A DNA stretch of 64,000 bases, taken from a virus. The notes under the pieces are model-generated. The model was not told the DNA's origin. It did not search any database and was given only the letters and a program-made list of their open reading frames with translations. Below are positions 48,741-51,543 of this stretch, one piece after another; position 1 is the stretch's first letter; every line of letters starts with the position of its first letter. The stretch lies in the IMG/VR virus record IMGVR_UViG_3300047089_000307, positions 64,001 to 128,000 of that record; one strand, 5' to 3'. Both the position numbers and the translations under genes were made by a program.

Positions 48741-48791
48741 AGACCCCAAGATACCGGTAACAGGGCCCGGCACCGAGTGAAACGGCGCCGG

Positions 48792-50404
48792 GCTCCCGTG
48801 CCTGCCTAGCCAGGCCCGTCCTAGCCGAGCCATTCCTGCCGGGGCGGGCCGCGCCCAGCCCTGCCTAGCCTTGCGACGCCTGCCGAGCCTTGCCCAGCCG
48901 CGCCACGCCAAGCCCTGCCTGCCCAGCCGAGCCTAGCCCAGCCGCACCACGCCTAGCCATGCCTGCCACGCCAGACCTTGCCCTGCCTAGCCATGCCTGC
49001 CGGACCTCGCCTCACCTAGCCAAGCCATGCCGCGCCTGCCCTGCCGTGCCGCGCCGGGGCCTGCCGAGCCTAGCCATGCCTGCCTAGCCGAGCCCTGCCG
49101 AGCCTAGCCATGCCATGCCTGCCAGTCCTGGCCTTGCGTCACCCCGCCTTGCCCCGCCGTGTCCATCCCTTTTACGCCGGATGCTGCTGCTCCCGTGCCT
49201 GCCCGGCCACGCCAGACCTCGCCGCGCCTAACCTCACCTGCCCCGCCATGCCAGACCTTGCCGCGCCTAACCTCACCTGCCGCGCCAGACCTCGCCATGC
49301 CCTGCCGTGCCTAGCCGTGTCCATCCCTTTGCGCCGGATGCTGCTGCTCCCGTGCCTGCCGCGCCGCACCTGGCCATGGCTAACCTCACCGCGGCTGCCG
49401 AGCCGATCCCAGCCGTGCCTAGCCGTGCCGGCCCTGACCTCGCCTGCCCTGCCGCGCCGCGCCTGACCCAGCCAGGCCACGCCATGCCTGCCGCGCCGAC
49501 GCGCGCCACCCCGTGCCAAGCCACGCCCTGCCTGCCGGTCCCCGCCTAGCCCCGCCTGGCCATGCCAGCCCGAGCCATGCCTGCCTTGCCAGACCTTGCC
49601 TCGCCGTGCCTTGCCGTGCCTGCCCGGCCTCGCCACATCGCGCCATGCCTCTCCTTGGCCAGCCTCGCCATGCCTGCCCCGCCTGGCCTCGCCGGACCCT
49701 GCCCTGCCGCGTCCATCCCTTTACGCCGGATGCTGCTGCTCCCGTCCCTGCCGGTCCCGGCCTAGCCTCACCGAGCCTGACCTGCCTGACCGCGCCATGA
49801 CGCACCGAGCCTTACCGGTCCCTGCCTGCCATGCCACGCCACCCCGTGCCAAGCCCTACCTGCCCTGCCGCGCCGCGCCCTGCCGTGCCGTGCCTCGCCT
49901 GCCGCGCCTGGCCCTGCCGCACCGCACCATGCCACGTCCATCCCTTTACGCCGGATGCTGCTGCTCCCGTGCCGGCCAGACCTGCCGAGCCATGTCGTTC
50001 CGCTCCGCGCCATGCCCTGCCTGCCAAGCCACGCCCCACCCCGCCGAACCGAGCCATGCCTGCCAGGCCGTGCCGAGCCGCGCCTAGCCACGCCACGCCA
50101 TGCCTGCCGGGCCATGACGCACCGCGCCTTGCCGCGCCACACCGTGCCTGCCCCGCCTTGCCAAGTCCATCCCTTTGCGCCGGATGCTGCTGCTCCCGTG
50201 CCTGCCCCGCCTAGCCAAGCCTTGCCACGCCGCGCCTTGCCTGCCGGGCCGGACCCCGCCGGGCCGGACCATGCCGAGCCGCACCATGCCGTGCCTGCCG
50301 GACCGGACCACGCCACGCCGCACCATGCCGTGCCTCGCCTGCCGCACCAAGCCTCGCCGGACCCCGCCTTGCCATGTCCATCCCTTTCAGCCGGATGCTG
50401 CTGC
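48792..50404 (-). ncRNA. GGY-NN pentamer array, putative guide-RNA array (VIPR-like)
   Basis: Minus strand reads GGC AA GGC GG GGT CC GGC GA GGC TT GGT GC GGC A GGC ... for ~1.6 kb, split into six blocks by a conserved ~42 bp repeat; lies directly downstream of the RAMP-like operon. Confidence 0.8.
49161..50404 (-). repeat. Six copies of a conserved repeat (up to ~42 bp) inside the array
   Basis: Plus-strand GTCCATCCCTTT(T)RCGCCGGATGCTGCTGCTCCCGT starts at 49161, 49319, 49711, 49936 and 50165; a variant starts at 50376; a partial GCTCCCGTGCCTGCC is at 48792. Confidence 0.95.
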
Positions 50405-50854
50405 CTTCTTCACCTGCGCCTCGTGCTCGGCGATGACCTCGGCAAGCTCCTGCCAGAACTCGGGGTAGTCGCGGTACCGCTGGGCCATGGAGCGGACCTC
50501 GCGGCGGATGCGCAGCAGGATCAGGCCCTGCTCCTGCGTCGTGAGCGAGGTGACGCTGGAGTACGTGCCGGGCGGCGAGGGGATGCCGATCATCCGGTCG
50601 GCCACGTACTTGCGCATCATGACCGCGCGCTGGCCGCCGGACGCGACCTCGCGGACGACGGCCACCCGGTAGCTGCGGATCAGGCCGCGGGCCTCCTCCA
50701 GGCGGCGCTGCGCCGCGGCGATGGCGTCATCCCAGGTGAACAGCCCGTGCAGCGCGCTGTCCTCCGGCCGTGCTGCCGCCACGACCTCATCGGCGTGCAG
50801 CTTGCCGCGGGAGTCCTCCAGCCCCTTCAGGGCCTTCAGTACCTCATCCCTCAC
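50387..50854 (-). CDS. Accessory protein coupled to the RAMP-like gene
   Basis: GTG start overlaps the upstream TGA; L.ADEVV.AAR.EDS.LH..F.WDD..AA...RL.EAR.LIR motif; 155 aa. Confidence 0.8.
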   Translation of the reverse strand: MRDEVLKALKGLEDSRGKLHADEVVAAARPEDSALHGLFTWDDAIAAAQRRLEEARGLIRSYRVAVVREVASGGQRAVMMRKYVADRMIGIPSPPGTYSSVTSLTTQEQGLILLRIRREVRSMAQRYRDYPEFWQELAEVIAEHEAQVKKAAASG

Positions 50855-51543
50855 AGGACTATCTCCTTGACCTCGGCGTCGTCCGGCACCCGGAACGTGC
50901 CGTAGGAGCCAGTATTGGATTCCTTGCTGGCCGGGCGCCACTCGCCGATGCCCGCGAAGCCGGCGGCGTCCACCAGCGCGATGACGGACTCCAGCGTCAG
51001 CGAGTTGCGCACCCAGACCACCTCCAGCACCGCCGACCACGGCCAGTACTCCGGCCGGAAGCGGATGTCGGCGACGCCGGTCTCGTTGCGCGCGTAGTCC
51101 TGGCGCATCACCGCGGTGGCCGGGACGAGCGCCGACTCCTCGCCGGTCCACTCCCCCCAGACGGGGACCAGCAGCGTGCGGTTCGCCTGGTCGGTGCCCG
51201 GCTCGCCGTTGACGAAGATCATCCGGCGCAGGTCCGTCATGGGCAGCTTGGAGCCCTTGAAGAACCGGGCCGCGTCCACGATGGCGGCCTTGAAGCCGAC
51301 CGAGGGGAACGCGGGGGCGCCGCCGGGGAGCAGGTGCTGGGCGTCGCGGAAGTTCTGCTCCGGGTCCTTCGGCTGGCGCTCGACGGGCTTGCCCATCTGC
51401 CGGTCGAGCATGATCTGCTGGGCCTTGGCGCTGAACTTGTTGGTGATGAGCGGGGTGAGGCCCTGGACGGGCACCCGGATCATGGAGCGGCCGAGCCGCT
51501 GGAGCGAGATCGCGCCCGTGGTGGTGGCCTTCGCTGGGGGCAT
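50851..51543 (-). CDS. Stand-alone Cas7/RAMP-like RNA-binding protein (Vipr-like)
   Basis: N-terminal strand with GLTPLI, FPSVGFKAAI (compare RAMP P.ss.KG), R.RP....W and a C-terminal Gly-rich loop GFAGIGEWRP...GSYGTF.V; AAAGGGA RBS. Confidence 0.75.
   Translation of the reverse strand: MPPAKATTTGAISLQRLGRSMIRVPVQGLTPLITNKFSAKAQQIMLDRQMGKPVERQPKDPEQNFRDAQHLLPGGAPAFPSVGFKAAIVDAARFFKGSKLPMTDLRRMIFVNGEPGTDQANRTLLVPVWGEWTGEESALVPATAVMRQDYARNETGVADIRFRPEYWPWSAVLEVVWVRNSLTLESVIALVDAAGFAGIGEWRPASKESNTGSYGTFRVPDDAEVKEIVL

What the first reader, a model, noticed from the sequence alone, without database searches (positions are those of the whole stretch)
49161..50404. Conserved hairpin repeat divides the array into six blocks and overlaps the accessory gene's stop codon
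Seen: on the minus strand GGGAGCAGCAGCATCCGGCGYAAAGGGATGGAC recurs at irregular spacing (blocks of about 115-355 nt) and contains a CATCC/GGATG stem. The most upstream copy is the last codons of the accessory gene (AAASG-stop, GGCTGAAAGGG). Inference: it is a handle, cap or cleavage signal defining individual RNAs, and blocks expanded by duplication anchored at the gene end.
Basis: partly seen in the sequence, partly recalled or inferred. Interest (0 to 1): 0.75.

Follow-up and report, generated by a model that had tools for sequence, protein, structure and literature searches.

The report
Repeated leader in VIPR guide array
A large phage carries a VIPR system (a CRISPR-like RNA-guided DNA-silencing device first described in 2026), and the repeat is a small conserved RNA element that opens the guide array in one group of these systems and here occurs six times; the system is known, this element is not described in the VIPR papers I could read, and its job is unproven.

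Summary
The six copies are real and occur nowhere else in the 159-kb virus record. They lie in the GGY/NN guide array of a VIPR locus (Vipr, winged-helix-like Vap, staggered array with 32 GGCA junctions). The core is 29-30 nt and starts at GCAGC; the GGGA before it is the leftover foot of the array's terminal hairpin. Ten related loci (Vipr 58-97% identical, one clade) carry the same core at the array's 5' end: nine once, a 97% relative at least three times. It travels with the array, not the gene: one relative has it 22 nt past the vap stop, another has no adjacent vap. Arms are invariant, the loop is 9-26 nt, the one stem change is C-G to U-G; there is no compensatory change and the stem is weak. 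Guides are delimited by GGCA junctions, not by this repeat, and blocks are not copies of each other. Best reading: a clade-specific, protein-read 5' leader of the guide precursor, multiplied by head-to-tail fusion of array cassettes. Mechanism inferred only; no RNA data, no targets found. The scan has met staggered VIPR arrays before in other genomes. New variant of a known kind.

The parts
50851..51543 (-). vipr gene, 230 aa RAMP/Cas7-like protein
   Evidence: Profile of 40 homologues hits SUSP1 Vipr (PDB 36pp) at E=9.7e-5, the only hit under 0.4; model pLDDT 86 matches Csm3/Cmr4/Cas7 folds, Z up to 10.4, rmsd 4.1, 159 aligned
50387..50854 (-). vap (accessory) gene, 155 aa, winged-helix-like N-terminal part; ends A-A-A-S-G-stop
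   Evidence: Overlaps vipr stop; homologues follow vipr in most loci; model pLDDT 91, best fold matches are winged helices at Z 4-6 only
50376..50404 (-). leader element copy 1; overlaps last five vap codons, stop codon in the loop
   Evidence: same position in 8 of 10 related loci
50165..50193 (-). leader element copy 2 (internal)
   Evidence: also read in two independent assemblies of the same phage, which break here
49936..49964 (-). leader element copy 3 (internal)
49711..49739 (-). leader element copy 4 (internal)
49319..49347 (-). leader element copy 5 (internal)
49161..49190 (-). leader element copy 6 (internal, 10-nt loop)
48795..50375 (-). staggered vrRNA array: GGY/NN pentamers in six blocks, 32 four-base GGCA junctions, units mostly 34-54 nt (6-10 NN)
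   Evidence: 28 of 29 four-base steps in clean context are GGCA; 188 of 204 in-phase pentamers start GGY
48760..48799 (-). strong terminal hairpin closing the array; the foot of its 5' arm (ACGGGAG) is the sequence that precedes each internal leader copy
   Evidence: -43.8 kcal/mol, z -4.6; GG(C/G)ACGGGAGC occurs before copies 2-6 and here at 48802; strong hairpins of unrelated sequence close six related arrays

Best explanation
The repeat is a clade-specific 5' leader element of the VIPR guide (vrRNA) precursor. In this clade the array is transcribed behind vipr-vap and is bracketed by this element at the point where translation stops and by a strong hairpin at the 3' end (shown as anatomy). 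The element is most likely a small RNA stem with an expendable loop and invariant flanks that is read by a protein (Vipr, Vap or a host RNase) to mark where mRNA ends and guide RNA begins: to start loading, protect a 5' end, or direct a cut (inferred). Single guides are set by the GGCA one-base stagger (known grammar). In the lineage of this phage whole cassettes (leader to the foot of the terminal hairpin) were joined head to tail at a 2-base GC overlap, with loss of the intervening hairpin, giving a 1.6-kb array with six leaders; recombination then reshuffled the guides (junction shown, order of events inferred).
For: Same core at the array's 5' end in 10 of 10 related loci of one Vipr clade that have downstream sequence; 24 invariant positions while Vap proteins are 38-50% identical and flanks are unalignable. 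Kept outside any vap frame in L001 and L002. Where it overlaps vap, two GCA codons never change although GCA is 12% of Vap Ala codons. Loop 9-26 nt, with a 6-bp stem-loop inserted in L021; the only stem change is C-G to U-G in three loci. Fixed 3' register: core, then N-Y, then GG in all 19 copies listed. One copy only in a 97-kb relative and none outside the array here, so not a general phage promoter. Internal copies are intact (0 substitutions in 168 positions outside the Y, one 1-nt insertion) in two phages whose guides mostly differ, against 17 of 612 deviant scaffold positions. Blocks of 128-370 nt match whole-array sizes of relatives, about 100-750 nt.
Against: No change on both sides of any pair; covariation equals shuffles. 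The stem is not more stable than shuffles and in naked context its probability falls to 0.02-0.15 in the window copies; it needs the flanks held single-stranded. The C/U change and the one variable 5' base are also synonymous in the vap frame. Staggered arrays outside the clade (L014, L116, L027, phage Saal) lack the element, so it is not needed for guide production in general. In five relatives a GGCA junction follows 2 nt after the core, so the first guide's 5' end need not come from it. Intact internal copies could reflect recent spread or gene conversion. No RNA data.
Confidence: 0.5

Rival explanations
1. Only the first copy matters; the five internal copies are passengers of head-to-tail array amplification and act at most as 38-nt homology for unequal recombination.
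For: Nine of ten relatives have one copy; each internal copy is preceded by the stump of the terminal hairpin; arrays recombine freely between strains; arrays of 2-3 kb exist with no such element.
Against: Internal copies are unmutated in two phages with largely different guides, and one L137 copy has a new upstream flank that stops exactly at the core's 5' edge. This rival concerns the internal copies only and is compatible with a functional first copy.
Confidence: 0.3
2. It is an elongation or antitermination signal (nut- or boxA-like) that lets polymerase pass from the translated genes into a long untranslated array.
For: It sits exactly where ribosomes leave in all 11 loci (on, or 10-22 nt after, the last stop codon); the longest array of the clade has the most copies. 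boxA-type antitermination of CRISPR arrays is known (from memory; paper not retrieved).
Against: No boxA-like sequence; loops differ in length and sequence; longer arrays elsewhere lack it; processive antitermination would need one copy.
Confidence: 0.15
3. It is a 3' element of the vipr/vap mRNA (autoregulatory binding site or 3' stabiliser left after the first GGCA cut), not a leader of guides.
For: Stop codon in the loop in 9 of 11 loci; GGCA junction 2 nt behind it in five relatives; Vap has a winged-helix-like fold, a fold also used by SelB to bind an mRNA hairpin, though Z is only about 5.
Against: Kept where adjacent vap is absent (L002); five extra copies far from any gene; weak stem.
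Confidence: 0.12
4. It is a small self-cleaving RNA of an undescribed kind, placed like the hammerheads that separate guides in type I and V VIPR arrays.
For: Invariant unpaired bases around a short stem with a replaceable peripheral loop; position between guide blocks matches the ribozyme-vrRNA arrays of bioRxiv 10.64898/2026.04.26.720920 fig. S19.
Against: No Rfam match; no hammerhead core; only about 24 conserved bases; ribozyme stems normally covary and this one does not; no second helix or pseudoknot found.
Confidence: 0.08
5. It is a DNA element: an internal promoter, a Vap operator, or only a conserved AAASG peptide tail.
For: Inverted repeat with invariant arms; Vap is predicted DNA-binding; nine Vap proteins end in AAASG plus 0-1 residues.
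Against: Arm spacing varies from 9 to 26 bp; no sigma-70-type match; synonymous positions are frozen and the motif persists in non-coding DNA; the 3' arm lies past the stop.
Confidence: 0.08

Closest known systems
VIPR systems with staggered vrRNA arrays (Yoon et al., bioRxiv 10.64898/2026.04.26.720920, fig. S18)
   Same: vipr + vap + GGY/NN array in a virus; guides adjoin by a one-base overlap (here always GGCA then GGY).
   Different: The text and legends describe no conserved leader or interspersed hairpin for staggered arrays ('leader' has 0 hits in the supplement; figures could not be seen). Units here are 6-10 NN, shorter than the typical 9-16.
Type II VIPR (SUSP1, P. fulva) with a 3' pseudoknot tail on each vrRNA (10.64898/2026.04.26.720920, .720927, 2026.10.15.759431)
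   Same: A conserved structured element next to the pentamer tract.
   Different: The tail follows every guide at its 3' end; this element precedes the first guide, is missing after the last block, occurs once per 3-9 guides, and shows no pseudoknot.
Hammerhead-interspersed VIPR arrays, types I and V (same preprint, fig. S19)
   Same: A conserved RNA element between guide segments.
   Different: No hammerhead core or Rfam match; the array is also staggered.
CRISPR leader and Cas6-read repeat hairpins (from general knowledge)
   Same: Array-specific element at the 5' end; short stem with invariant sequence suggests a sequence-reading protein.
   Different: Irregular spacing, variable loop length, no cas6, and strain variants show mosaic, not leader-polar, guide turnover.

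Membership tests
VIPR system | Small stand-alone RAMP (Vipr) with RRM core, thumb and G-loop | tested here: met
   SUSP1 Vipr hit; Csm3/Cas7 fold; G-loop G-x-G-E-W-R-P invariant in 40 homologues
VIPR system | Adjacent GGY/NN pentamer tracts | tested here: met
VIPR system | Accessory vap gene in a two-gene operon | tested here: met
   winged-helix-like model. Which of vap1-6 it is could not be fixed
VIPR system | Mostly virus-encoded | tested here: met
   G000 is a virus record of 158,651 nt
VIPR system | Guides match DNA targets by the one-base skip rule | tested here: inconclusive
   No excess over shuffled guides in the own genome or in 0.6 Mb of fetched loci; two long guides in IMG/VR gave 0 hits and 1 hit in a 43% GC contig, taken as chance
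VIPR system | vrRNAs expressed and bound by Vipr | not testable with these tools
Staggered vrRNA array | Successive guides offset by a one-base overlap | tested here: met
   32 GGCA junctions, modal unit 39 nt
Type II vrRNA 3' tail | Conserved structured tail 3' of each guide | tested here: not met
   Element lies 5' of the first guide in 11 loci and is absent after the last block
Hammerhead-vrRNA array | Hammerhead core (CUGANGA ... GAAA, three stems) between guides | tested here: not met
   No such core in the repeat; no Rfam match even at E up to 10
CRISPR direct repeat | Regularly spaced repeats with unique 30-40 nt spacers | tested here: not met
   Spacing 157-392 nt filled with pentamer tracts
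Structured RNA motif | Compensatory base changes in the stem | tested here: inconclusive
   Four pairs never vary, one varies on one side only (C-G/U-G), none on both

The most novel reading that the evidence does not exclude
The element is a previously unknown minimal processing module for VIPR guides, either a new small self-cleaving RNA or a site cut by Vipr itself, and its multiplication lets a phage stack independently matured guide cassettes taken from relatives.
Probability: 0.12. Interest if true: 0.8.

Novelty: new variant of a known kind. Interest (0 to 1): 0.4.

Why it matters
How staggered vrRNA arrays are cut from the mRNA, matured and expanded is not addressed in the three VIPR preprints I read. 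This locus offers a 29-nt, array-specific, clade-conserved element with natural variants (loops of 9-26 nt, one or many copies, with or without vap), which makes maturation directly testable, and it shows one way an array can grow: head-to-tail fusion of cassettes with loss of the terminal hairpin. If it is a portable cap or processing site it would help multiplex VIPR guides. The system itself is already known.

Tried and rejected
Rfam, window and nine relatives: no family on the element. Promoter scan: none. Small ORF from the ATG in the 3' arm: lengths 5-173 codons, not conserved; the codon after the core is a start codon in only some copies. Whole-block duplication: longest shared pentamer run between blocks 2-4, one pair at p=0.005 of 21 tests; only block 5 has a clear internal duplication. 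Leader-polar acquisition: strain variants L005-L019 differ in the middle or 5' part as mosaics. Diverged copies outside the clade: none above 17.4 bits in about 100 loci. Orphan copies in IMG/VR: only two known loci. Target searches negative. Pfam gives nothing for Vipr or Vap. By eye I found no fit to HDV-like, twister, pistol or k-turn consensus (from memory, not a test). A likeness of the 3' arm to CsrA sites or a Shine-Dalgarno sequence was noted and not tested. No complex prediction was run, since RNA partners are not supported. The tree excludes L137 (fetched later) and loci under 40% identity.

Full report
Observation. On the minus strand the repeat occurs six times between 49161 and 50404. 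Copy 1 supplies the last five codons of the 155-aa gene at 50387-50854, with the stop in the loop. The record is a 158,651-nt, 69% GC virus contig and holds no other copy. Two other assemblies of the same phage reproduce block 1 and break at copy 2, as expected for a true repeat.

Setting. The gene at 50851-51543 is a Vipr: a profile of 40 homologues finds SUSP1 Vipr as its only significant PDB sequence, and the model matches Csm3/Cas7 folds. The next gene is a Vap with a winged-helix-like model (weak Z of 4-6). Behind it lie about 1.6 kb of GGY/NN pentamers broken 32 times by a four-base GGCA step into units of mostly 34-54 nt. This is the staggered vrRNA array described in bioRxiv 10.64898/2026.04.26.720920, fig. 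S18. A strong hairpin (z -4.6) closes the array at 48760-48799. The host is unknown; GC content, cultured homologues in Mycobacterium and Gordonia phages and one copy in a Mycobacterium bin point to an actinobacterium (inference).

The element in relatives. Ten related loci with Vipr identity 58-97% carry the same core, GCAGCNGCATCYGGC, a variable stretch, then AGGGATGGAY, always at the 5' end of the array. On a Vipr tree they form one clade (support 90/66; 99/91 with the sister L014, which lacks it). A covariance model separates true copies (46-67 bits) from everything else (under 18 bits) in about 100 loci, so it is not hidden in more distant systems. In nine of eleven loci it overlaps the last vap codons, but in L001 it starts 22 nt after the stop and in L002 (Vipr 89% identical) there is no adjacent vap and it starts 10 nt after the vipr stop. 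It therefore belongs to the array. Two GCA codons in it never change although GCA is 12% of Vap alanine codons, so the constraint is on the nucleotides.

Structure. The loop varies from 9 to 26 nt and in L021 contains an inserted stem-loop; the one stem change is C-G to U-G in three loci. That fits an RNA stem read on the minus strand and argues against a promoter or operator with fixed spacing. It is not proof: no pair changes on both sides, the stem is no more stable than shuffles, and in naked context it is outcompeted (probability 0.02-0.15, against 0.8-0.96 when the flanks are held open, as a Vipr coat might do). Invariant arms and flanks suggest a sequence-reading partner rather than a simple stabiliser. 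There is no Rfam match and no hammerhead core.

How six copies arose. Each internal copy is preceded by the same nine or ten bases that precede and begin the terminal hairpin at 48802. An internal repeat is thus the 3' end of one cassette joined, at a shared GC, to the leader of the next, with the hairpin lost. Blocks (128-370 nt) are the size of whole arrays in relatives. The internal copies carry the non-stop loop seen in L002, not the stop-bearing loop of copy 1, so they were not simply copied from the present gene end. A phage with a 97% identical Vipr (L137) has at least three copies in a truncated array, shares three guide units with the window, and has one copy with a new upstream flank ending exactly at GCAGC. 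Internal copies of the two phages show no substitution in 168 positions outside the Y, against 2.8% deviant scaffold positions: selection or conversion, not decided. Blocks are not duplicates at guide level, and strain variants of a relative show mosaic arrays.

Mechanism. Shown: position, conservation, independence from vap, junction anatomy. Inferred: the element is a protein-read RNA leader that marks the passage from mRNA to guide precursor and serves in loading, 5' protection or cutting (0.5). It cannot be the general maker of guide ends: staggered arrays outside the clade lack it and often open with a GGCA junction close to the stop, and in five clade members such a junction follows 2 nt after it. 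Rivals are passenger internal copies (0.3, compatible with a functional first copy), antitermination (0.15), an mRNA 3' or autoregulatory element (0.12), a new small ribozyme (0.08) and a DNA or peptide element (0.08). No targets were found and no RNA data could be had.

Comparison and verdict. The locus meets the testable defining features of VIPR and of staggered arrays. The element is not the type II 3' tail and not a hammerhead. I found no mention of a leader for staggered arrays in the texts and legends of the preprints, but figures were not visible. Earlier notes of this scan report staggered VIPR arrays in other genomes. Verdict: real, conserved, a new variant of a known kind; interest 0.4.

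Noticed in passing
L124:2095-2330 (Mycobacterium phage Saal, NC_023580); 33 GenBank records: Cultured Mycobacterium and Gordonia phages carry vipr homologues (34-41% identity); in Saal a staggered GGCA array lies upstream of vipr-vap next to the immunity region. A culturable test bed for staggered-array processing.
   Followed up: partly
L002:2855-4379: VIPR locus with Vipr 89% identical to the window's but no adjacent vap gene; leader and array follow vipr directly. The contig is only 4.4 kb, so vap may lie elsewhere.
   Followed up: partly
L001:72-4470: A cluster of 28 tRNA genes directly upstream of the VIPR locus, and a promoter-like TTGACC-17-TATTCT just before vipr (seen by eye).
   Followed up: no
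L005-L013, L017, L019 arrays: Strain variants of one phage with identical Vipr have mosaic guide arrays, exchanged in 5' or middle parts, showing guide turnover by recombination.
   Followed up: partly
L027:5340-8654 and L014:6180-8400: Very long (over 3 kb and over 2 kb), degenerate staggered arrays without the leader.
   Followed up: no
window:49191-49318: Block 5 holds two near-identical neighbouring guide units, a local tandem duplication.
   Followed up: yes
window:46648-48761: A RecD-like SF1 helicase gene (Pfam AAA_30, UvrD_C_2) and a further 274-aa gene follow the array on the same strand; the helicase is not next to the array in the relatives whose gene lists I saw.
   Followed up: partly
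window:41871-53671: Many small plus-strand ORFs end in a shared A-R-x-L-(T/S)-L-x-E-M tail on both sides of the inverted VIPR block.
   Followed up: no
window:55982-57562: A 526-aa ORF that reads like a prolyl-tRNA synthetase, unusual in a phage (recognised by eye, not searched).
   Followed up: no
G000:C1:144928-144957: An isolated run of six GGY/NN pentamers far from the VIPR locus; may be chance.
   Followed up: no
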